Shown piece after piece: positions 7,053-35,725 of a stretch of DNA of 35,725 nucleotides (within the stretch, counting starts at the first letter, position 1; the number at the start of each line of letters is the position of its first letter). The stretch covers positions 1 to 35,725 of the IMG/VR virus record IMGVR_UViG_3300033987_000045. The stretch is one strand, 5' to 3'. The notes under the pieces are model-generated. The model did no database searches, was not told where the DNA came from, and worked only from the letters and a program-made list of their open reading frames with translations. The DNA comes from a virus (taxonomy: Duplodnaviria > Caudoviricetes). The position numbers and the translations under genes are program-made.

Positions 7053-8046
7053 GCATCCAAAAACGAGAAAACTTGCCCGGATTTTGGGGGTTTCTATCCC
7101 AACGGTAATTGGCCACCTCCACCTCCTTTGGTGGTGGGCCATGGACTATGCTCAGGAAGGAACACTGGAACGGTATGACGATAGCGACATCGCCGATGCG
7201 GCCATGTGGGAAGGTGACCCTGCACAGTTTTTGGATGCTCTTTATACAGCGGGTTTTATTGATCAGGATGAACACGGAGTGTTTTCTATTCATGATTGGC
7301 ACGATTACGCAGGACGATTACTGGAAAAACGGCGTGCCGATGCGGAAAGAAAAAGGTCAACGCGGCACCGTCCAATGGATGTCCAACGGACGTCCATTGG
7401 ATGTCCAACGGACGGCGCAGGTAACCTAACCGTACCTAACCAAACCGAACATAACCAGACCGTAAAAATAGATACACATGCGCCTGGCGGCGCGTCCGCG
7501 CAACCTCAAAATCCATCTGACCAACCTGCTGACCAATCTGGCGAGCAGCGAAAGCGGGCCAAGACCCAGAAGCAGGAAGAGTTGTTTGCGAGGTTTTGGG
7601 CGGCCTACCCTAAGAAGCGTTCAAAGGGTCAGGCCGAGAAAGCGTGGGCTAAACTCCAACCGGACGAGCAGCTCGTGGAGACAATGTTAGCAGCCATCGA
7701 GCGGGCCAAGAAATCCGAGGAGTGGCGCAAAGAGAACGGGCGCTATATCCCATACCCTGCTACCTGGCTAAATGCCAAGGGGTGGGAGGATGAATACACC
7801 ATCGCAGCGGAGGTGAATTCAAATGCACAGCATCGGGGATGTACTCCAAAACCTTCGGCCTTTGGAAACGCAGTCCAGGCCAAGAACCGCTTTGCGGGCC
7901 TTGCAAGGGACGGAGGAACAGGGCGTGTCATTGGACGCCAGGATAGCCCAAATACAGGCGGAAATAGCCAGGCGTCAGGAAATCCTAGAGAAAGCGCCGG
8001 TGATAACGAAAGTCATAAAGTCGCCGCAGGAGTGTCCATGGCGTGA
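7018..8046 (+). CDS. Phage replication initiator (replisome organiser)
   Basis: N-terminal MAWIESHQELARHPKTRKLA..GHLHLLWWWA domain; internal iterons; C-terminal FARFWAAYPKKRSKGQAEKAW..YIPYPATWLN domain; followed by a DnaC-like gene. Confidence 0.85.
   Translation: MAWIESHQELARHPKTRKLARILGVSIPTVIGHLHLLWWWAMDYAQEGTLERYDDSDIADAAMWEGDPAQFLDALYTAGFIDQDEHGVFSIHDWHDYAGRLLEKRRADAERKRSTRHRPMDVQRTSIGCPTDGAGNLTVPNQTEHNQTVKIDTHAPGGASAQPQNPSDQPADQSGEQRKRAKTQKQEELFARFWAAYPKKRSKGQAEKAWAKLQPDEQLVETMLAAIERAKKSEEWRKENGRYIPYPATWLNAKGWEDEYTIAAEVNSNAQHRGCTPKPSAFGNAVQAKNRFAGLARDGGTGRVIGRQDSPNTGGNSQASGNPRESAGDNESHKVAAGVSMA
7370..7470. other. Putative replication origin: four 11-bp palindromic iterons plus an AACC-rich tract
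   Basis: GTCCAATGGAT/GTCCAACGGAC/GTCCATTGGAT/GTCCAACGGAC at 7370-7413, then GTAACCTAACCGTACCTAACCAAACCGAACATAACC, inside the initiator gene as in lambda-type origins. Confidence 0.75.
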
Positions 8047-8770
8047 AAATAGTTGGCGTAGGTGCGAGGAATGCCAGATGGGCAAGCGCGAGGAAAGCCA
8101 GCTGGAGCCTGAGCCACTCCGGACGATATATGACGTCAGCTCCTGCTATTCGGAGGTGCGATATCGGGAGCTTATCGAGAAAAGCGGTCTTATGGGTATT
8201 GAGTTAAACCACCTTTTCGAGAACGCAATCATCGACGAACATAACCGTGAACTTTACACCTACCTGATGGTATGGGAACCATCCGTCGGGGGCGGGATTT
8301 ATATAGCGGCAAAGAAGGACCCAGACAATCCACAGGGCAACGGAACTGGAAAGTCTTATGCCCTCCATGCGCTGACTCACCGGTTATGCCGGATGGGTAT
8401 ACCTTGCCTGTATGGGCGCACGGTGGATTTCTTGATGCAGCTCCGGGCGGCCTACGACGAAGGCAGCCAGGAAAGCGAGAGTAGAGTTTTGATGCGGTAC
8501 ACCCAGGTGCCTGTCCTGTTGTGGGACGACCTGGGCAAGGAAAGTTTCAGGACAGACTGGGGACCGGAAAAGTTTTACTACGTGATTGATTACCGGGTAA
8601 GGGCCAATAAGCCTATTATCATTTCGACCAACTTTGACCTAGCAGAAATCGAGGTTAGGTTTGGGCGCGATAACTTCGGTCCAGCAATAGCCAGCCGTCT
8701 GGCAGGGTTTTGCGAAACATGGACACTGGGCGGGCCTGATAGGCGGCTCGGGAGGAGGTGTGTCAGGTGA
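7823..8770 (+). CDS. DnaC/IstB-like AAA+ helicase loader
   Basis: GGAGGTG RBS; GNGTGKS P-loop; LLWDDLGKE Walker B; IIISTN; IASRL; DRR end. Confidence 0.88.
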   Translation: MHSIGDVLQNLRPLETQSRPRTALRALQGTEEQGVSLDARIAQIQAEIARRQEILEKAPVITKVIKSPQECPWRENSWRRCEECQMGKREESQLEPEPLRTIYDVSSCYSEVRYRELIEKSGLMGIELNHLFENAIIDEHNRELYTYLMVWEPSVGGGIYIAAKKDPDNPQGNGTGKSYALHALTHRLCRMGIPCLYGRTVDFLMQLRAAYDEGSQESESRVLMRYTQVPVLLWDDLGKESFRTDWGPEKFYYVIDYRVRANKPIIISTNFDLAEIEVRFGRDNFGPAIASRLAGFCETWTLGGPDRRLGRRCVR

Positions 8771-9087
8771 TAGCATTGCAGAACGGGTTTGAGGGGCAGC
8801 TGTGGCAGATTATCATTGATGCCTATGGGTATGACGAGGACACTCATTTGTTTCTACGGGAAATACGGCAAGATGGAGTAATCGCCTGGCTTGCCAAGCG
8901 CATTGAGCACATAGAGAGCGACCTGGTTTTCTTGCGGCATTGCAAAGGCTTACCCATCTGGGACGAGACCATCAGAGACGCCACCATAGTGCGCCGTATG
9001 CTGGAGGTCATCACTACCGGCCAAGACAGAGGTCTTTACTTGGGCCCTGGCGACGACCGCCTACGGGCGGGTGCAGCAGATGCTTAG
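8767..9087 (+). CDS. Hypothetical phage protein
   Basis: GTGA overlap with the loader stop; GGAGG upstream. Confidence 0.65.
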   Translation: MIALQNGFEGQLWQIIIDAYGYDEDTHLFLREIRQDGVIAWLAKRIEHIESDLVFLRHCKGLPIWDETIRDATIVRRMLEVITTGQDRGLYLGPGDDRLRAGAADA

Positions 9088-9268
9088 GTTTCCTTGTGGG
9101 TTTAAGATAACCGGACGGCTTGGCATAAGCGAAAAACCGCCAGGCATTGCCCAGAGAGGTAACCCAAAGGGCGATGAGTGCAACCGGTGCCCAATGGGTA
9201 TGCACTTGAGGGATGATTGGACGATTTGCAATGCAGAGATTTTGCCGGAGGGAGGGGATGAAGAATGA
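9080..9268 (+). CDS. Small Cys-containing hypothetical protein
   Basis: Fills the gap with overlapping start and stop; CNRC motif. Confidence 0.55.
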   Translation: MLRFPCGFKITGRLGISEKPPGIAQRGNPKGDECNRCPMGMHLRDDWTICNAEILPEGGDEE

Positions 9269-9687
9269 CCACGGTTTATTTGGCTGGCGCTATTGATGGT
9301 CAGCCAGCTGATCAAGTGACTTGCTGGCGACGGAAAGCAGCCCTGGTCCTTAAAGAGAACGGATTTTCGGTGATTGACCCAACAGAAGGCAAAGACCTGA
9401 CTGCCTTCTACGACCCGCGTGACATCGTTGAGACTGATCTGGCAAATGTGGACCGGGCTGACATCATCCTATTGGAGATGAATACCAAAGGCCACGCTTA
9501 CATAGGGACAGCCATTGAAATGAGGCGGGCCTGGGAGCAAGGAAAGCCTGTTATATGCTGGGGGACGGCCAACCGGGAGAGCTATTTTCTGCGGTATCAT
9601 GCCACGGCAATGCTGGATACCCTTGATGAAGCCATTGGGGTGATTGTGAATGGCAACTATCCGCGAGATACTGGAAGCCAGGAATGA
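9265..9687 (+). CDS. Nucleoside 2-deoxyribosyltransferase-like (NDT/Rcl fold) protein
   Basis: VYLAGAI..WR..VIDP..DLANVDRADIIL..GTAIEM..GKPVI pattern. Confidence 0.8.
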   Translation: MTTVYLAGAIDGQPADQVTCWRRKAALVLKENGFSVIDPTEGKDLTAFYDPRDIVETDLANVDRADIILLEMNTKGHAYIGTAIEMRRAWEQGKPVICWGTANRESYFLRYHATAMLDTLDEAIGVIVNGNYPRDTGSQE

Positions 9688-14041: not shown

Positions 14042-15416
14042 CGCCAGAGATAGTCTCTCGTTTTTCCTGGAGTATGAGAGCGCTGGCGAATGGAAGCCGG
14101 CGAACCATCTAAACCTTTTGTGCGAGAAATTGGAGGCCATCGAGCGCGGCGAAATCAAACGCCTTATTGTGGAGATGCCGCCTCGCCATGGTAAATCAGA
14201 GGTGGTCTCCAAAAAGTTCCCCGCATGGTTTCTTGGAAGAAACCCTGACAAAGAGGTTATCCTGACTTCTTATGGCGCCGATTTGACATTTGATTTTAGC
14301 CGCATCGCCCGGGATACCTTTGAGCGGATGGGGCCTGTTTTGTGGGGGCTAGAGCTCTCTCCTCGCAGTTCAGCCGTTGGTCGTTGGGAAATTAAAGGAC
14401 ATCGCGGAGGATTGACTGCAGCAGGTATTGGTGGCCCCATTACTGGACGCGGTGCCCATGTGGCGATTATTGATGACCCGATTAAAAACTGGGAGGAAGC
14501 TAATTCCAAGACCTACAGGGAAGCAGTGTGGAACTGGTATCGCACTGTGTTGCGGACACGGTTGGCACCCCAGGGCGCGATCATCCTGGTTTTGACTAGG
14601 TGGCACGAGGATGACCTGGCCGGAAGATTATTGAAAGAAGCCAAAAATGGCGGTGAGCAGTGGGAGGTTCTACGCCTGCCTGCTGTAGCAGAAGAAAACG
14701 ACCCACTTGGCCGCCAGCCAGGGGAACCGCTATGGCCAGAATATGGATTCGACGCTACGTGGGCCAAGGAAACCGAGAAGGCTGTCGGCAGTTTTGTTTG
14801 GGCAGCACTTTACCAGCAGCGGCCAATGCCTGCGGAGGGCGGTCTATTCAAACGGACAAACTTCCGCTACTTCCAGGTTGACGCCGAGTGGTACACCCTT
14901 CACCGCCCCGAAGGAGACAAACGGGTCCCGAAAAATGCCTGCTGGGTGTTTCAAACTTGCGACCCAGCCGGGTCCACCAAGACAACAGCAGACTATTTTG
15001 TCCTGGGCACATGGGCGGTCACACCAGATCGGGAGCTGTTACTCCTGGACATTATTCGAGAGCGGTTGGAGGGCCCAGACCAGCCGCGGCTGTTTAGAGA
15101 GGGTTATCGGCGTTATTCCCCCTCCTTCCAAGGGGTGGAGACAAAGAACATGGGCCTCACCCTGTATCAGATGCTACTTCGAGAAGGCCTCCCAATCCGG
15201 GAACTGAAAGCTGACAGCGACAAGGTGACCAGGGCATTGCCGGCTGCAGCCAGGATGGAAGCAGGAATGATTTACTTCCTGGACGGTGCGCCATGGCTGG
15301 GTGATTATGAGAGCGAGTTGCTCGCCTTCCCGAATGGTGAGCACGATGACCAGGTTGACGTAACGGCCTATGCCGCTCAACAGGTGGCGGCCGGGCCACA
15401 ATATGAGATTTTCTAA
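13941..15416 (+). CDS. terL: Terminase large subunit
   Basis: MPPRHGKSE Walker A, AIIDDP Walker B, TRWHEDDL, YQQRP, CDPA and HDDQVD nuclease motifs; start uncertain. Confidence 0.95.
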   Translation: MSTILPSASSRTLKPERSLEGFTEKELIAIWEADARDSLSFFLEYESAGEWKPANHLNLLCEKLEAIERGEIKRLIVEMPPRHGKSEVVSKKFPAWFLGRNPDKEVILTSYGADLTFDFSRIARDTFERMGPVLWGLELSPRSSAVGRWEIKGHRGGLTAAGIGGPITGRGAHVAIIDDPIKNWEEANSKTYREAVWNWYRTVLRTRLAPQGAIILVLTRWHEDDLAGRLLKEAKNGGEQWEVLRLPAVAEENDPLGRQPGEPLWPEYGFDATWAKETEKAVGSFVWAALYQQRPMPAEGGLFKRTNFRYFQVDAEWYTLHRPEGDKRVPKNACWVFQTCDPAGSTKTTADYFVLGTWAVTPDRELLLLDIIRERLEGPDQPRLFREGYRRYSPSFQGVETKNMGLTLYQMLLREGLPIRELKADSDKVTRALPAAARMEAGMIYFLDGAPWLGDYESELLAFPNGEHDDQVDVTAYAAQQVAAGPQYEIF

Positions 15417-15435
15417 AGCGGGTGTTGCCGATGGG

Positions 15436-17466
15436 GTGAAAGATAGAATTCAATCTCTCCGCGCTGGCCTCGGGCTGGTCGGTGCGGGGTTTCAAGTAAT
15501 GATGGCTAGTAAGGCTCCAGGAACGTTCTTGTCACAAGTCTGGGAGGCCATACAGGCCCGGTGGGGCGAGCCGCCCAAGCGCAACTCCAAACAATGGCTG
15601 GAGATGTATGGGAAAAACCCACGCTTAAGGCCGGTCTATAAGATTGCCAAGGACGTAGCGGCGTCCCAGTGGCATCTTTATGTGGAGCGGGGCAAAGAAA
15701 AAGTCGAGCTACAGGACCACCCTCTGATTAGACTGCTGGAGAGGCCCAATCCTCGAATGACCGGAAACGCCTTGATGTATCTTACACAGGTTTACTTGAG
15801 CTTGCGCGGTGAAGCCTTTTGGCTGCAGGAAAGGAATGGACTAGGTAGCCCATCTGAACTATGGCCCATTCCTCCCTATTGGGTCGTCGAAACGCCGACC
15901 ATGAACAAACCTTATTACCGAGTTGATTTTCACAACGGCTCACAAGTCCTGGTGCCTGCGGAGGACATCATTATGCTTGTCGAGCCCGACCCAGTGAACC
16001 CATACGGTCGGGGCCTGGGGTCAGCCGAAGGTATCGGAGACGAGATTGAGACCGATGAGTACATGGCGAAGTGGGCAAAGAGGTTTTTCTGGAATAATGC
16101 CACTCCTCCTGTTGTATTTGAAGCACCAAACATCCAGAAGGAACAAGCAGAGCGCATCAAGGAGGAATGGATGGAGCGGTATGCCGGTTATTGGAACGCA
16201 CACAAACCAGCCATTCTGCCATGGGAGGCAAAAATCCACGAACTGGGCAAAGGCCAGAAGGAAATGGATTTCGTGGAGTCCAGGAGGTATATCCGTGACA
16301 CGGCCATGCAGCACTTCATGATTCCACCTGAGCTGATGGGGGTAATTGAAAACTCTAACAGAGCCACTATCGATGCAGCTTATTACATTTACGCGGCAAA
16401 CGTTTTAAAGCCATGCTTGGACCTCATCCAGGAGCATATACAAGTTTTCCTGGTGCCCCAATTCGACGATAAGTTGATTTTTGAGTTTGATGACCCTGTA
16501 CCAGCAAATAAAGAATTCCGCCTACAGCAGGCTAATGACGGCCTCAAGCAGGGCGCCCTTACCGTGGATGAATGGCGCGAGCGCAACGGCTTTGACCGCC
16601 TGGAAGAAGGCGGCGATGTCATTTATGTGCCTATTGGGTCGGTGCCCACGCCAGTCAAACAGGTAAAGGGTAGACTCAAAGGAAAGATGACCAGGGGGCT
16701 GACGCCCGAGCAGAAAACCGCTATTTGGTGGATGTTCGATAAAGCAGCCAGAAGCCAAGAGAGCAACCTGCAGCGGGCCCTGAAGCGGTATTTTCAAGCC
16801 CAGCAGGACGAAATTACCCGCAACCTTGAGGAACTGCTGGGAGAAAAGGCAAAGGCTGTGTATAAGGATGTGGATAATCTTCTGCAGTTGTTAGCTAATT
16901 GGCAGGAGCAATATCAAGCACTGCTGGATTTGCTGCGGCAGTTTTGGGATGCATCCGCCCGGGATGGCTGGCAGGCTGTTCAGGATATCTTTGACCTTCC
17001 GGTTAGTTACGAGCTAATTAATCCCAGGGTGGTTCAGTGGATGGAGACCAACGGTGCCGAGAAGGTTAAAGACATTACCGAGACTACCAAGCGGGCACTC
17101 GCCCAAACCCTGGCCGAAGGCATAGCCCAGGGGGATGGCGTTGCAAAGCTACGGGATAGGGTTTCGGAGGTATTCCGCCAGGCAAAAGTGGTCCGGGCCG
17201 AGACCATTGCCAGAACAGAGACGCACAACGCTGTAAGCATTGGCACCTTTGAGACCTACCGAGCTGGCCGGGTGGAGCAAAAAGAATGGCTGGCCACCCG
17301 CGATTCCAGGGTGCGGGACAGCCATATCTCCATTGACCGGGAGGTGAGGCCTATCGACCAGCCGTTTTCAAACGGTTTGATGTATCCTGGGGCGCCTGGA
17401 CCGCCCGGGGAGGTCATCAACTGCAGGTGTGCACTGTTACCGGTCATTGAAGGCGTAGAGGATTGA
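15436..17466 (+). CDS. Portal protein fused to a MuF/SPP1 gp7-like minor head protein
   Basis: Portal motifs (LLERPNP, LRGEAF, GRGLG, FFWNNATP, LTVDEWR) continue without a stop into RAETIARTET..KEWLATRDSRVRDSH..NCRC; start uncertain (GTG 15436 chosen). Confidence 0.88.
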   Translation: MKDRIQSLRAGLGLVGAGFQVMMASKAPGTFLSQVWEAIQARWGEPPKRNSKQWLEMYGKNPRLRPVYKIAKDVAASQWHLYVERGKEKVELQDHPLIRLLERPNPRMTGNALMYLTQVYLSLRGEAFWLQERNGLGSPSELWPIPPYWVVETPTMNKPYYRVDFHNGSQVLVPAEDIIMLVEPDPVNPYGRGLGSAEGIGDEIETDEYMAKWAKRFFWNNATPPVVFEAPNIQKEQAERIKEEWMERYAGYWNAHKPAILPWEAKIHELGKGQKEMDFVESRRYIRDTAMQHFMIPPELMGVIENSNRATIDAAYYIYAANVLKPCLDLIQEHIQVFLVPQFDDKLIFEFDDPVPANKEFRLQQANDGLKQGALTVDEWRERNGFDRLEEGGDVIYVPIGSVPTPVKQVKGRLKGKMTRGLTPEQKTAIWWMFDKAARSQESNLQRALKRYFQAQQDEITRNLEELLGEKAKAVYKDVDNLLQLLANWQEQYQALLDLLRQFWDASARDGWQAVQDIFDLPVSYELINPRVVQWMETNGAEKVKDITETTKRALAQTLAEGIAQGDGVAKLRDRVSEVFRQAKVVRAETIARTETHNAVSIGTFETYRAGRVEQKEWLATRDSRVRDSHISIDREVRPIDQPFSNGLMYPGAPGPPGEVINCRCALLPVIEGVED

Positions 17467-27702: not shown

Positions 27703-27733
27703 GTAGCATAATTAATTAGTGGAGGTGTGCTAC

Positions 27734-28438
27734 ATGGCTGTATTAGCAGGATTGCTTACGCTTTTAGGTATGGCTGGGGCAGCCGTTGCCCTGGTCATGC
27801 TGATTGTTCAGTTTATCTTTAAGCGGGGATGGGCCAAGAAAAGAATTTGGACGGTGGGGGCTGTCTCTCTGGCCCTATTCGTGGTCGGTATGGTAATGGG
27901 GGTTTCGTCGGTACCCGAGGGATATGAAGCTGGTCGACAAGCGGCGCAGAACGAAACGGCGGTTAACAAAGTTTCTACGCCAAATCCAGAGAAAGAACAA
28001 CCGCCATCCCCGCCCCCTTCTTCTGATAAATTAACGGAAACTACGGAAGCCACAGCGCCAGCGAAGTCTCTGCAAGATCAACAAGAGCAAAAAACAGAAG
28101 CAGCCCAAGCAGTCAAAAATAAAACCGAGGACATGCTAAAAAACATCGTAGTGACCGTTGAAACTCAAGAGGTTTACGACTCTAAAGACAGGCAAAAAGC
28201 GGTTGTTTGGGTAGTTAACAAAACTGACCATATATTCAGTGGCCAGTTGGATATTATGGTCAAAAGTGGAGAATTTAGCCGTGGCGCAGAGTTGTTTACG
28301 ATAACAGATCTTAAACCTGGGCTGCGAACATGGGGCATTATGTGGTTACGTACATCATTCATGGGAGCGGACACAGGACGCGGGGCCGAACCAAAAGTAA
28401 CATGGTCAAATGTCGAGTTTAAACAGCCCCAAGAGTAG
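27734..28438 (+). CDS. Moron: membrane-anchored protein (2 TM helices, P/E/T-rich linker, beta-rich C-terminal domain)
   Basis: GGAGGTG RBS before ATG 27734; interrupts the usual tape measure-XkdP adjacency; visibly more A/T-rich than neighbours. Confidence 0.8.
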   Translation: MAVLAGLLTLLGMAGAAVALVMLIVQFIFKRGWAKKRIWTVGAVSLALFVVGMVMGVSSVPEGYEAGRQAAQNETAVNKVSTPNPEKEQPPSPPPSSDKLTETTEATAPAKSLQDQQEQKTEAAQAVKNKTEDMLKNIVVTVETQEVYDSKDRQKAVVWVVNKTDHIFSGQLDIMVKSGEFSRGAELFTITDLKPGLRTWGIMWLRTSFMGADTGRGAEPKVTWSNVEFKQPQE

Positions 28439-32062: not shown

Positions 32063-33138
32063 TCACTTCTAACCACGGCAAAGAAATGATGAATAATTCG
32101 CCCAGGTATTATCAGACCAGCCGGGTCTTTCAGGCCCACGTAGAGGCTAAGGGCATTGAGCTGGATAACCTGGACGCCATAATGAACGACATCGAGGCCC
32201 AGTTCTCCGCATCTACTGCAACCTGGGGACTTCGGTACTGGGAGGAAATGTGCGGTCTGCCTGTTAACGAACAGGAACCGCTTGAAAACCGCAGAGCCAG
32301 GGTGTTGGCAAAGTTAAGGAGCTTCCCTTCTGCCAGACACTACGACATACTCAATGTCATTAAATCCTTTGTAAAATCGGGCAGAGTCGATTTAGCTGTT
32401 TATCCTGGTGAGTATCGGTTCGTTGCTATCTTAGCGTCAGAGGCTGAGGCTAATGTGCCCGGAATTCTGGCGGCCATCGAGGAAGCGAGGCCAGCGCACC
32501 TGGCATTTAGCCTAATTCTCGCTATTCTATCACGATATGTGGTAACCCATGAACGCAGGGTAACCTGGCATGTGCCGGTCATGTCCGGGATGCCCTCCAA
32601 CATACGAAGGCTGGATAAGTATCGCCGTAATATAAACGGCGGTTTCAGGTTAAACAGCACGGTCACTCTTGCGCCAATCCCTGGCCTATCGGGAGTGACC
32701 TTGTTGGATGGACAAATCAAACATTCAGCCCGTTATAACTTTCAGTCGCAACGTCAGATGGGCGAAGTAAGAACCCTGGGCGTACCTCCAGACTATCTGG
32801 ATTCACGCTATAGGTTAGATGGTCGATTCAAACTTGACTATCAGGTCCAGGACACCAGGTGGTTTTTGGATGGAACTACATCAATAGGCTATATGGGGGC
32901 ATTAACGGGCGGCCTCTCTTTAAATGGCGCATGGTCGCTGAACTTCGCAAGGCGATTGGATGGTGAAATTGTAATAAAGCCACGTCATTTCCTTGTTGGT
33001 TTTGGGGATGCGCCCCTTCAAACCGAACACCGACAGCTTAATGGGTCGTGGAATATAGGAAATACTCTGGTCACCCATCGTCTGGCATGGGTCAAATGGC
33101 GTGATGGATTGGTAATTGAAAGGGGGTTGGCAAGTTGA
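32059..33138 (+). CDS. XkdU-like baseplate protein with repetitive C-terminal extension
   Basis: TATWGLRYWE..RRARVLAKLR..RPAHL, then about 200 aa with recurring L(D/N)G.(F/W).L motifs. Confidence 0.8.
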   Translation: MITSNHGKEMMNNSPRYYQTSRVFQAHVEAKGIELDNLDAIMNDIEAQFSASTATWGLRYWEEMCGLPVNEQEPLENRRARVLAKLRSFPSARHYDILNVIKSFVKSGRVDLAVYPGEYRFVAILASEAEANVPGILAAIEEARPAHLAFSLILAILSRYVVTHERRVTWHVPVMSGMPSNIRRLDKYRRNINGGFRLNSTVTLAPIPGLSGVTLLDGQIKHSARYNFQSQRQMGEVRTLGVPPDYLDSRYRLDGRFKLDYQVQDTRWFLDGTTSIGYMGALTGGLSLNGAWSLNFARRLDGEIVIKPRHFLVGFGDAPLQTEHRQLNGSWNIGNTLVTHRLAWVKWRDGLVIERGLAS

Positions 33139-33500
33139 ATGTTGTAACCACAGTATACGGCCGAGAGGCAATGGCAAAGGCTCACGCTGGCGACGCGTCC
33201 CTGCCAAAGATAACTCATATTGCCTTTGGCGTTGGGGGTGGAGCTGGGGTAACTCCCAATCCAAATGCCACTGCTTTGACATCAGAGATTATTAGAAAGC
33301 CGGTGGCCAGCCATTCATATCCAACGTCCACCACGGTCCGTTACCATGTAGACCTTACTGGTGATGAGATCGGTGGCGCAGGGATAAATGAAGCTGCACT
33401 TATTGATGCGACCGGCAAAGCAGTAGCCATCCAGACTTTCGGAACTAAAACTATCGAGCCTGGCGAAACCGTCGGTTTCGATTGGGATGAAGAATTTTAA
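33135..33500 (+). CDS. Tail-fibre N-terminal/collar-like protein
   Basis: TTG start; T.YGR..MA, HIAFGVG, TALTSEI.R, INEAALID pattern of fibre-attachment domains. Confidence 0.7.
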   Translation: MNVVTTVYGREAMAKAHAGDASLPKITHIAFGVGGGAGVTPNPNATALTSEIIRKPVASHSYPTSTTVRYHVDLTGDEIGGAGINEAALIDATGKAVAIQTFGTKTIEPGETVGFDWDEEF

Positions 33501-33516
33501 GGAGGTGTAATTCCTT

Positions 33517-33882
33517 ATGGCTACTTTAATAGGCATACCAGTTTATAAGAACAACGTAAGGAAACTGGAACCTACTGACCCGGCGGCTCCAGAAACCTGG
33601 GACCCTATCCACCAGGACCTGATTAACAATGACGTCTATCTTAAGCAACAGATTGACAGCATTCAAATTCAGACGTCCCAAGGCGAGGCCAATTTTGCTT
33701 CTACCAACGGGGTAACTATCACCCATAACCTTGGGAACACAAATTATATGGTGAACATTGTCCCCCTGGCCGATACCGGCGGCGACCTTGGAGACGTGTT
33801 TATTTCCAAGGCAGCCAATGCCTTCACGGTCTACAATACCGGGGGCTTTACAGGTTCATTCCGTTGGCAAATAGCCAGTTAG
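33517..33882 (+). CDS. Tail fibre-associated protein
   Basis: AAGGAGG RBS; LINNDVYLK and ITHNLG motifs. Confidence 0.7.
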   Translation: MATLIGIPVYKNNVRKLEPTDPAAPETWDPIHQDLINNDVYLKQQIDSIQIQTSQGEANFASTNGVTITHNLGNTNYMVNIVPLADTGGDLGDVFISKAANAFTVYNTGGFTGSFRWQIAS

Positions 33883-33891
33883 GAGGTGTTT

Positions 33892-34269
33892 ATGATGGCA
33901 ATTATTCAACAAAACCCAGAAAAACCAAACGGAGTTATTAGCATTGACCAAGCTAATCCTGCATGCCTGTCTATATCCCCATTCTCTTTCCCGGACGGAA
34001 ACTGTTTCGGGGGAACGATTGACTTGACCGAATTCCAGGGCGGACCTGCCAGGGTATACCTGGACAAGAACGGCAGCTTGTCGACCGACCTTTATCGCGA
34101 CCACTACTGGCTTTTGGCCGAGTGCGTCCTGCCGGAGCGCCAGTTCGACCAGCAAGAAACGGGTATGGTAGACGAGCAAGGTCAGCCGGTGACCATGATT
34201 GTGGAGCGACCGCTGGACCTTAATAACATCGATATTACAGCATTTCCTCTTCCGGAGGTGGTGGAATAA
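33892..34269 (+). CDS. Hypothetical tail fibre-region protein
   Basis: AGGAGGTG RBS before ATG 33892; stop abuts the next start. Confidence 0.65.
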   Translation: MMAIIQQNPEKPNGVISIDQANPACLSISPFSFPDGNCFGGTIDLTEFQGGPARVYLDKNGSLSTDLYRDHYWLLAECVLPERQFDQQETGMVDEQGQPVTMIVERPLDLNNIDITAFPLPEVVE

Positions 34270-35725
34270 ATGGCGAACGTTAGTAAATTATCCATTGCCG
34301 CACTTAGAGACAGGATTAACGCTGGCACTCGTGAGGTGGATGTCGTCCATAATTCCAAGGCTGACGGGACTGGCACCACAGTCGTTTCAAAAGCGATTTA
34401 TGTCCCAAGATTCCGCATCCCTGCTGGTCTTTGGGATAACGGTGCATTTCCTCCCTACGACCTTAAACTGGGTGGGTTCTTGTTAGATAAATACCCATGC
34501 AGCCAACCCGACGCCACCAGTTCCAGCCGGGGTAGCACTACGGCAAACAGCCCGGGCCAGACTGCAGCCGTGTCCCAGCAAGGAGTCGTTCCCTGGACCG
34601 ATATAAACTGGGATAACGCCAAAATCGCCTGTGCAAACCGGAAAACAAACGGGCGTTCTTGGCATCTGGTAACCATGAAAGAATGGGCTACTATTGTATT
34701 TTTAATTAAGTTGTTGGGCCATGATATCAGGGGCAATAACAACTGGGGACGTGACTACCGTGACCCAGACTCCTGGGAGTATTACGGCATTGCCGACCCA
34801 GTCGTCGCAAGCTATACGGCCAGTTATAATAAGACTCACTCCCGCCTGCTCACAGGCACAGGCCCGATTTCCTATAGCCACAACGGGATGGCGAACGGCA
34901 TCTTTGACATCGTGGGTAACGTCTGGGAATGGGTTGATTTCCTAATTGACTGCGGCCGTTACCAGGCCATTAAGACTGCGGCCATTAACGATGCGGACGG
35001 CATTACCGCTACTGACACTGCCATCGTCATAGACAACGTGCAGAACCCTGAACTTTGGCCTGCCAGCAATGGTTTGGTTTTAATCAAGGCAGAGGGCACC
35101 AACACAGATGAATATGTGCTTTACTCCTCCTTCGTTGATAATGGCAACGGCACCTATACCCTTACTGGCTGCCAGCGTGGCCAGAATGGCACGGCGGCCA
35201 GCGCCCATGCCAACGATGCGGTGGTGCAGCAGATCACCGATTACTGCGTCATCCCTGGCGGATGGACTGCCAAGGTGGCCGATGCTGGCCTGAACAATAC
35301 CACCAGCCCGGCCACGTTTACTATATCCAATCTGGTTAACGGGCCTGGTTGCACTGGCCCTGCTGTAGGAGATGTGCTCCAGTGTCAAACTGAGCAGATG
35401 ACCATAACCGCAGTAAGCGGCAACAGTATCACAGTGAGCCGCGGCGCTAACGGCTCGACGGTCGCTGCCCATGCCCAGGGAACTGGCATAGCCAAGATAT
35501 CTCCGCAAATGAGCAATGATAACCCAACGTCCACAGACGCCACTTATGGAGCTTCACAATTCGCTAAGTTCCTGACGATGAGAACAGAGGCAGAACTGGC
35601 AGCACTGGCACTTCCAGCGACCGTTTCCTCTGGCGGAAGCGAGGAATGGAAGGACGGCTTTTGGTTACGGAACTATGGCCAGCGGGCTGCCCTCCGCGGC
35701 GGGTACTGGTACAATGGCTCGTATG
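34270..35725 (+). CDS. 3'-truncated receptor-binding protein with FGE-sulfatase/CLec fold (Mtd-like), probable DGR target; not in ORF track
   Basis: Translated by hand: open for 485 codons from ATG 34270 (GGAGGTG RBS). Motifs GFLLDKYPCS, PWTDINWDNAKIAC, WHLVTMKEW, SHNGMANGIFDIVGNVWEW, and it ends ALRGGYWYNGSY. Confidence 0.88.
   Translation, partial: MANVSKLSIAALRDRINAGTREVDVVHNSKADGTGTTVVSKAIYVPRFRIPAGLWDNGAFPPYDLKLGGFLLDKYPCSQPDATSSSRGSTTANSPGQTAAVSQQGVVPWTDINWDNAKIACANRKTNGRSWHLVTMKEWATIVFLIKLLGHDIRGNNNWGRDYRDPDSWEYYGIADPVVASYTASYNKTHSRLLTGTGPISYSHNGMANGIFDIVGNVWEWVDFLIDCGRYQAIKTAAINDADGITATDTAIVIDNVQNPELWPASNGLVLIKAEGTNTDEYVLYSSFVDNGNGTYTLTGCQRGQNGTAASAHANDAVVQQITDYCVIPGGWTAKVADAGLNNTTSPATFTISNLVNGPGCTGPAVGDVLQCQTEQMTITAVSGNSITVSRGANGSTVAAHAQGTGIAKISPQMSNDNPTSTDATYGASQFAKFLTMRTEAELAALALPATVSSGGSEEWKDGFWLRNYGQRAALRGGYWYNGSY

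What the first reader, a model, noticed from the sequence alone, without database searches (positions are those of the whole stretch)
35680..35725. Window ends inside a probable DGR variable repeat showing an adenine-mutagenesis footprint
Seen: CGC GGC GGG TAC TGG TAC AAT GGC TCG TAT G = RGGYWYNGSY at the C-terminus of a CLec/FGE-fold tail protein. Known: DGR template repeats for such targets typically read RGGNWNNGSNAG, with AAC/AAT codons whose adenines are randomised by the reverse transcriptase. Inference: TAC, TAC and TAT are each one A-to-T change from AAC, AAC and AAT, so this looks like a diversified VR for host-range switching. The template repeat, avd and RT are not in the window and are predicted just downstream. 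DGRs are a known class, but this instance is invisible in the ORF track.
Basis: partly seen in the sequence, partly recalled or inferred. Interest (0 to 1): 0.82.

Follow-up and report, generated by a model that had tools for sequence, protein, structure and literature searches.

The report
Phage diversity-generating retroelement variable repeat
The window stops inside a hypervariable gene tip, and a near-identical copy of the same phage carries the matching template and reverse transcriptase right after it, so this is an ordinary new example of a known mutation cassette that likely lets the phage change which host cells it binds.

Summary
Confirmed, and ordinary. Window 35682-35725 is the first 44 nt of a 117-nt variable repeat (VR) of a diversity-generating retroelement (DGR). 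The window's record ends there. Record G001 (locus L008) is colinear with it, with 13 differences in 35,644 nt, 5 of them in the VR. G001 continues into a GRNA-loop hairpin, avd, the template repeat (TR), an Rfam RT-14 spacer and an intact YMDD reverse transcriptase. Over 18 related loci, 215 of 225 mismatches do. Near-identical phage copies each carry a different VR, and 3 of 4 public assemblies break inside it, so the window end is probably caused by this diversity. The target folds like the DGR protein TaqVP (Z 29.3), with two tail-tip-like beta-barrels inserted. The same cassette type, with a 73%-identical target, is already catalogued in Desulfotomaculum reducens MI-1. Host-range switching and virion location are inferred, and no raw reads were available. 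New member of a known kind.

The parts
35682..35725 (+). 5' 44 nt of the 117-nt variable repeat (VR); the record ends here. The other DGR parts lie beyond the window and were read in L008 (window position = L008 position + 28269): rest of VR and stop 7457-7542, hairpin 7572-7591, avd 7619-7987, TR 8015-8131, RT-14 spacer 8132-8286, RT 8297-9385
   Evidence: 36 of 36 non-A positions match the TR; 3 mismatches, all at TR adenines: 35704, 35710, 35722. Parts beyond the window:
34270..35725 (+). Target gene, first 485 of 513 codons; predicted FGE-type C-type-lectin fold
   Evidence: model of cluster-mate P0002, pLDDT 94.9; best match TaqVP 5vf4, Z 29.3, E 7.8e-17
34969..35238 (+). Inserted beta-barrel 1 (aa 234-323), Rcc01698_C-like
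   Evidence: Pfam PF23666 E 3e-6; phage Chi tail tip 8vjh_A, Z 11.4, rmsd 1.8, 81 aligned
35260..35508 (+). Inserted beta-barrel 2 (aa 331-413), homologous to barrel 1
   Evidence: hhalign probability 97.4, E 1.6e-11; JBD30 baseplate 8rk3_o, Z 10.1, rmsd 1.9, 79 aligned
33135..34269 (+). Three small upstream ORFs (tail-collar-fibre N-terminal domain, 121 aa, 127 aa); likely link the target to the tail
   Evidence: PF12571; the 121-aa ORF precedes the target in 22 of 22 loci and the 127-aa ORF in 21 of 22; atlas gave leads only

Best explanation
The last 44 bases of the window are the start of the variable repeat of a diversity-generating retroelement, whose hairpin, avd, template repeat and reverse transcriptase follow directly in a 99.96%-identical copy of this phage; these parts likely rewrite the adenine-templated codons at the tip of a predicted lectin-fold protein that is likely a tail receptor-binding part, which would change the hosts the phage can bind. 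Shown: the cassette order target-avd-TR-RT, the adenine-specific VR/TR differences, and different VR versions in otherwise near-identical phage copies. Taken from the Bordetella BPP-1 system: an avd-TR-spacer RNA is reverse-transcribed by RT/Avd with errors opposite adenines, and the cDNA enters the VR at its G/C end with help from the hairpin. This can change 12 residues (aa 479-505; about 9e12 protein versions in theory). Inferred: the CLec fold (predicted model), location on the virion (gene position and tail-tip-like inserts), the receptor-binding role, a Clostridia host, and that the assembly broke here because the VR is mixed in the population.
For: G001 colinear with the window and continuing into avd/TR/RT. 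Window vs TR: 3 of 3 mismatches at A. 18 related loci: 215 of 411 TR adenines changed against 10 of 1,715 other bases. TR and avd in 20 of 25 close loci L003-L027 and RT in 19; four misses are contig ends, one is a deletion. 16 of 16 further RTs checked have no stop and keep YMDD. The 6 proteins of the target's cluster all differ in the VR; 5 of them differ from each other at one residue or none outside it. In contigs of 4 runs, 18 of 20 listed VR differences are at TR adenines and the other 2 restore the TR base. Runs X1 and X2 hold the window's 2-kb end with 0 other letters up to the VR, and TR-bearing contigs identical to L008. Fold matches TaqVP, TvpA and Mtd.
Against: The TR, avd and RT are not on the window's own record; the link rests on G001 and on separate contigs. 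No raw reads were served, so diversification within one sample is not shown directly. X1-X4 are one study and may be the source of the window, so they are not independent. The related loci share ancestry, so pooled counts overstate independence. L008's own VR has 2 non-A changes among 14. No experiment places the protein on the virion, and no cultured phage has a full-length relative (0 of 51 matching records cover 80%).
Confidence: 0.95

Rival explanations
1. A real VR, but frozen: the window's own phage has lost all or part of the avd-TR-RT cassette and keeps an old diversified tip.
For: Such losses occur in this family. L013 lacks 1,749 nt (hairpin to RT) relative to L012, L024 lacks 1,173 nt (spacer and RT) relative to L015, and L004 lacks the VR 3' end. 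The window itself gives no downstream sequence.
Against: G001 differs at only 8 of 35,600 nt outside the VR and has the full cassette. Runs identical to the window's end hold the cassette at similar contig depth (X2 18.3 vs 17.7; X1 9.7 vs 6.8). Breakage inside the VR suggests a mixed VR.
Confidence: 0.03
2. The DGR is real, but the target is not the host-receptor-binding protein. It would be another surface or accessory protein, and the variation would serve something other than host switching.
For: No virion or binding data. The target has no fibre or trimerisation domain by Pfam. Its closest solved relative TaqVP is monomeric (PMC6328139, passages).
Against: The gene is last in the tail module, after the baseplate and collar-fibre genes. 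The inserts match tail-tip and baseplate domains. Viral DGR targets are mostly structural proteins (10.1101/2020.04.01.020958, passages).
Confidence: 0.2
3. The Tyr codons are ordinary drift or end-of-contig assembly error, not retrohoming.
For: Only 3 differences, in the last 22 nt of a contig, where errors are common (general knowledge).
Against: All 3 are at TR adenines. L003 independently has the same base at 35704 and 35722. X1's contig matches the window to 35713. The same adenine rule holds in mid-contig VRs of 18 loci.
Confidence: 0.01

Closest known systems
Desulfotomaculum (Desulforamulus) reducens MI-1 prophage DGR (Wu et al. 2018, PMC5758913, supplementary table ST1 entry 217; also in Fig. 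5 legend of Guo et al. 2011, PMC3240598)
   Same: Listed as TG-AVD-TR-RT, architecture B1, CLec1 VR, FGE-sulfatase target, strong stem-loop, phage genes nearby. Its 1,503-nt target range fits the 500-aa Dred_1225 (my match, by length and organism), which is 73% identical to this target over 511 columns, inserts included.
   Different: A different phage and strain; TR with 22 adenines here against 27 listed there. The table names no inserted domains. I did not fetch that genome's DNA.
Thermus aquaticus prophage DGR, TaqVP (PDB 5VF4; PMC6328139)
   Same: Best structural match (Z 29.3, rmsd 4.1, 304 aligned, 26% identity); same cassette order; C-terminal VR.
   Different: TaqVP is a 381-aa single domain with short inserts. 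This 513-aa target carries two extra beta-barrels of about 85 aa inside the fold.
Bordetella phage BPP-1 DGR (mtd-avd-TR-brt)
   Same: Same order, G/C end of the VR, 8-bp hairpin with GRNA loop (PMC3240598, passages), AAY-rich TR, YMDD RT. Top solved RT hit is 8ub7 (that it is the BPP-1 enzyme is recalled). Mtd fold Z 12.8.
   Different: Host is likely Clostridia, with a contractile tail. No Mtd beta-prism/beta-sandwich match. The hairpin lies 42 nt after the shared G/C run. The spacer is RT-14, whereas BPP-1's is RT-10 (PMC5737381, passages). Only BPP-1 has experimental proof of tropism switching among these three.

Membership tests
Diversity-generating retroelement | TR/VR pair differing almost only at TR adenines | tested here: met
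   Window 3 of 3; L008 12 of 14; 18 loci 215 of 225
Diversity-generating retroelement | Intact DGR-type reverse transcriptase next to the TR | tested here: met
   362 aa, YMDD, best PDB hit 8ub7 E 1.2e-70; seen in G001, not on the window's own record; no RT tree built
Diversity-generating retroelement | avd accessory gene (architecture B1, target-avd-TR-RT) | tested here: met
   NF033474 above cut-off and PF22296; order; architecture definition from PMC5758913
Diversity-generating retroelement | G/C-rich shared end followed by differing IMH/IMH* tails | tested here: met
   Alignments; sequence pattern only, function untested
Phage-type DGR | 7-10-bp G/C stem with 4-nt GRNA loop downstream of VR | tested here: met
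   L008 8 bp with GATA. Perfect stem in 14 of 18 loci; the other 4 have interrupted stems around the same loop
Diversity-generating retroelement | Ongoing mutagenic retrohoming within a population | tested here: inconclusive
   Different VRs in near-identical copies and assembly breaks in the VR, but contigs only, no raw reads
CLec1 / FGE-type DGR target (category b) | C-terminal VR inside an FGE-subtype C-type-lectin fold | tested here: met
   Predicted model vs 5vf4 Z 29.3, TvpA 2y3c Z 14.6. Pfam FGE-sulfatase is below its cut-off (19.4 vs 23.3 bits), so the call rests on the structure and the PDB profile hit
Mtd-like tropism determinant | Sits at the tail tip, binds the host receptor, and VR changes switch tropism | not testable with these tools
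   Gene context and fold of the inserts only
Group II intron or retron | RT of those classes above family cut-off | tested here: not met
   TIGR04416 135.7 vs cut-off 300; retron St85 53 vs 235

The most novel reading that the evidence does not exclude
This Clostridia phage DGR family uses an undescribed sequence-specific targeting signal: a run of 2-5 TCTG copies after the VR, the last fixed two bases before the hairpin arm (20 of 24 loci). It also displays its variable lectin with a tandem pair of tail-tip beta-barrels inserted into the fold, which may dock it on the baseplate. Together with RT-14 as its primer RNA, this would be a compact, portable variant for dissecting how the cDNA finds its target.
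Probability: 0.2. Interest if true: 0.5.

Novelty: new member of a known kind. Interest (0 to 1): 0.2.

Why it matters
It adds one well-supported, probably active DGR from a subsurface Clostridia phage to a class with many described members. Practical points: a contig that ends in an adenine-substituted CLec motif can correctly predict a DGR just beyond an assembly break; Rfam RT-14 can be assigned as a DGR TR-RT spacer in this family; and the family offers natural deletion variants plus a conserved TCTG/hairpin spacing for studying target recognition.

Tried and rejected
Searching the window's own assembly: it is only the window. Second target or second VR: an adenine-blind scan of the window and of G001 35001-46212 found none (next best 47% of non-A positions). 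Raw reads: all 20 listed runs are contigs, so the read-level test failed. Cultured phages: no full-length relative. Earlier scan findings by sequence and by place: nothing. Atlas searches of the 127-aa and 121-aa ORFs gave unnamed clusters and weak tail-fibre leads only. I considered pairing between the VR-flank TCTG and a CAGA in the TR spacer and rejected it as unsupported, since four loci (L005, L006, L012, L022) keep TCTG without CAGA at that place (by eye). Literature: no paper held RT-14 with DGR terms, or two of Rcc01698/PF23666/diversity-generating. The three papers holding TCTG with DGR terms gave only oligonucleotide hits in the two I checked. These searches cover open-licence full text only; bioRxiv supplements (such as the Roux et al. 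tables, which may list this very DGR) and figure images could not be seen. No complex prediction and no RT tree were run. Rows dropped before the 18-locus count: L001, L002 and L026 (duplicates), L004 (truncated VR), L003, L013, L014, L016, L025 (no TR held), L028-L038 (distant).

Full report
Observation. The window ends in an open reading frame that starts at 34270 and runs off the end after 485 codons, reading ...QRAALRGGYWYNGSY. The quoted bases are at 35695-35725. The window is a partial genome of a contractile-tailed phage: replication genes, terminase, portal, capsid, sheath, baseplate and a collar-fibre N-terminal domain precede the gene. It holds no second repeat copy, avd or RT, and its assembly is this one record.

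The missing downstream DNA. Searches with the protein found 17 viral and 19 genomic loci. One, L008 in record G001 (46,212 nt), is colinear with the window from position 82 to the end. There are 13 differences in 35,644 nt, 5 of them at 35704-35724. L008 finishes the gene at 513 aa. It then carries a hairpin (7572-7591), avd (7619-7987; NF033474 above cut-off), a 117-nt repeat of the gene's end (8015-8131), an Rfam RT-14 match (8132-8286) and a 362-aa RT with YMDD (8297-9385). Lysis genes and a serine recombinase follow, so the phage is likely temperate. The RT's best solved relative is 8ub7 at E 1.2e-70, against 1.8e-19 or weaker for group II intron RTs.

Adenine footprint. The window matches the TR at 36 of 36 non-A positions and differs at 3 of 8 adenines. 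All 22 TR adenines lie in 10 AAY and 2 ATC codons, covering 12 residues between aa 479 and 505. Over 18 loci with a full TR/VR pair, 215 of 411 TR adenines differ in the VR against 10 of 1,715 other bases. The dropped rows are listed under Tried and rejected, and the loci are related, so I give no weight to a pooled p-value. Among the 25 close loci L003-L027, TR and avd were found in 20 and RT in 19; four misses are contig ends, L013 has lost the cassette and L024 the RT. Against: L008's own VR has two non-A changes; such changes are reported for some DGRs (PMC5758913, passages).

Signs of activity. The six proteins of the target's 90% cluster all have different VRs. Five are identical or one residue apart elsewhere, and the sixth (P0125) is 96% identical. 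P0124 and P0126 share the first part of the VR and differ only at its 3' end, as expected if homing starts at the 3' end and stops at variable points (inference from PMC5758913). Of the 20 VR differences listed (the table showed 40 rows and hid 182), 18 are at TR adenines and 2 restore the TR base. These runs are contigs from one study that may be the window's source, so they are consistent with activity but are not a read-level test. The window's own end is most simply the same kind of break.

Target protein. An AlphaFold2 model of the cluster-mate P0002 (99% identical over the window's 485 aa; 94-sequence alignment) has pLDDT 94.9. Its best match is TaqVP, the variable protein of a Thermus aquaticus prophage DGR (Foldseek E 7.8e-17; VIA Z 29.3, rmsd 4.1, 304 aligned), then TvpA, PvdO and Mtd (identity of 5VF4 from PMC6328139, passages). 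Residues 234-323 and 331-413 are two homologous beta-barrels (hhalign 97.4%) inserted in the lectin fold. They match tail-tip and baseplate domains of phages Chi, JBD30 and R4C (Z 11.4, 10.1, 9.6); I did not fold them alone. With the gene's place at the end of the tail module, this supports a tail location but does not show it.

Mechanism. By the BPP-1 model (PMC3240598 and PMC12875486, passages), the avd-TR-spacer RNA primes cDNA synthesis, RT errs opposite adenines, and the cDNA enters the VR at the G/C end, aided by a GRNA hairpin. Every cis part is present here: a perfect 8-9-bp stem with a GRNA loop occurs in 14 of 18 loci (L008 z -5.6), and RT-14 covers the spacer in L008 and 11 of 13 further loci. 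Weinberg et al. assigned only RT-10 to a DGR and speculated that other RT motifs do likewise (PMC5737381, passages). Receptor switching is inferred by analogy.

Comparison and novelty. Wu et al. list a DGR in Desulfotomaculum reducens MI-1 as TG-AVD-TR-RT, B1, CLec1, FGE-sulfatase, strong stem-loop (supplement row), and Guo et al. include it among phage DGR hairpins (figure legend). Its target size fits Dred_1225, 73% identical to this one. So this is a new member of a catalogued family. Two details I did not find in print: the inserted barrels, and 2-5 TCTG copies after the VR with the last one two bases before the hairpin arm (20 of 24 loci; background 0.1 per 42 nt). That pattern was derived from these related loci, so it is a lead only.

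Papers seen: PMC5758913 (passages and two supplement rows); PMC3240598, PMC6328139, PMC5737381, PMC12875486 and 10.1101/2020.04.01.020958 (passages); all others as search listings only. Verdict: real, correctly predicted, ordinary; interest 0.2.

Noticed in passing
L013 (vs L012 3720-5468), L024 (vs L015 8145-9317), L004 about 3393: Frozen derivatives: clean loss of hairpin-avd-TR-RT (1,749 nt), loss of spacer and RT (1,173 nt), and loss of the VR 3' end. No microhomology at the first two junctions. Assembly error not excluded.
   Followed up: partly
L020 about 7985-8290: About 300 extra nt, with a short ORF-like stretch, lie between avd and the TR in a Tepidanaerobacteraceae MAG whose target is 96% identical.
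   Followed up: no
L020, L005, L022, upstream of the target: Targets 83-96% identical sit behind baseplate J genes only 31-35% identical to the window's, suggesting the target and DGR move between phages as a module.
   Followed up: partly
window 35519-35555 and ending at 33739; L008 8643-8672: Short phage-matching pieces are flanked by one recurring unit of about 30 nt that looks like a CRISPR repeat (recalled, not tested), suggesting host spacers against the target and RT genes.
   Followed up: no
L008 7530-7571 and equivalents: 2-5 TCTG copies between VR and hairpin, the last at fixed spacing; four loci have an interrupted stem around the same loop core.
   Followed up: partly
L017 7991-8111: The TR has only 13 adenines; its 5' half already carries VR-like non-A codons identical to the VR, which narrows the diversifiable region.
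   Followed up: no
L028 1651-1777 and 2425-2551: A distant relative has TR, avd and RT inverted relative to the target.
   Followed up: no
window 27719-28438: A 239-aa gene between tape measure and LysM genes with no PHROG match and only a sub-threshold O-antigen-ligase-like Pfam hit; possibly an inserted membrane-protein gene.
   Followed up: no
window 15370-17466: Portal fused to a Mu gpF-like head morphogenesis domain; matches an existing PHROG.
   Followed up: no
runs X1-X4, over L008 8072-8134: Many other contigs share only the TR 3' end, so the same samples probably hold several unrelated DGRs.
   Followed up: no
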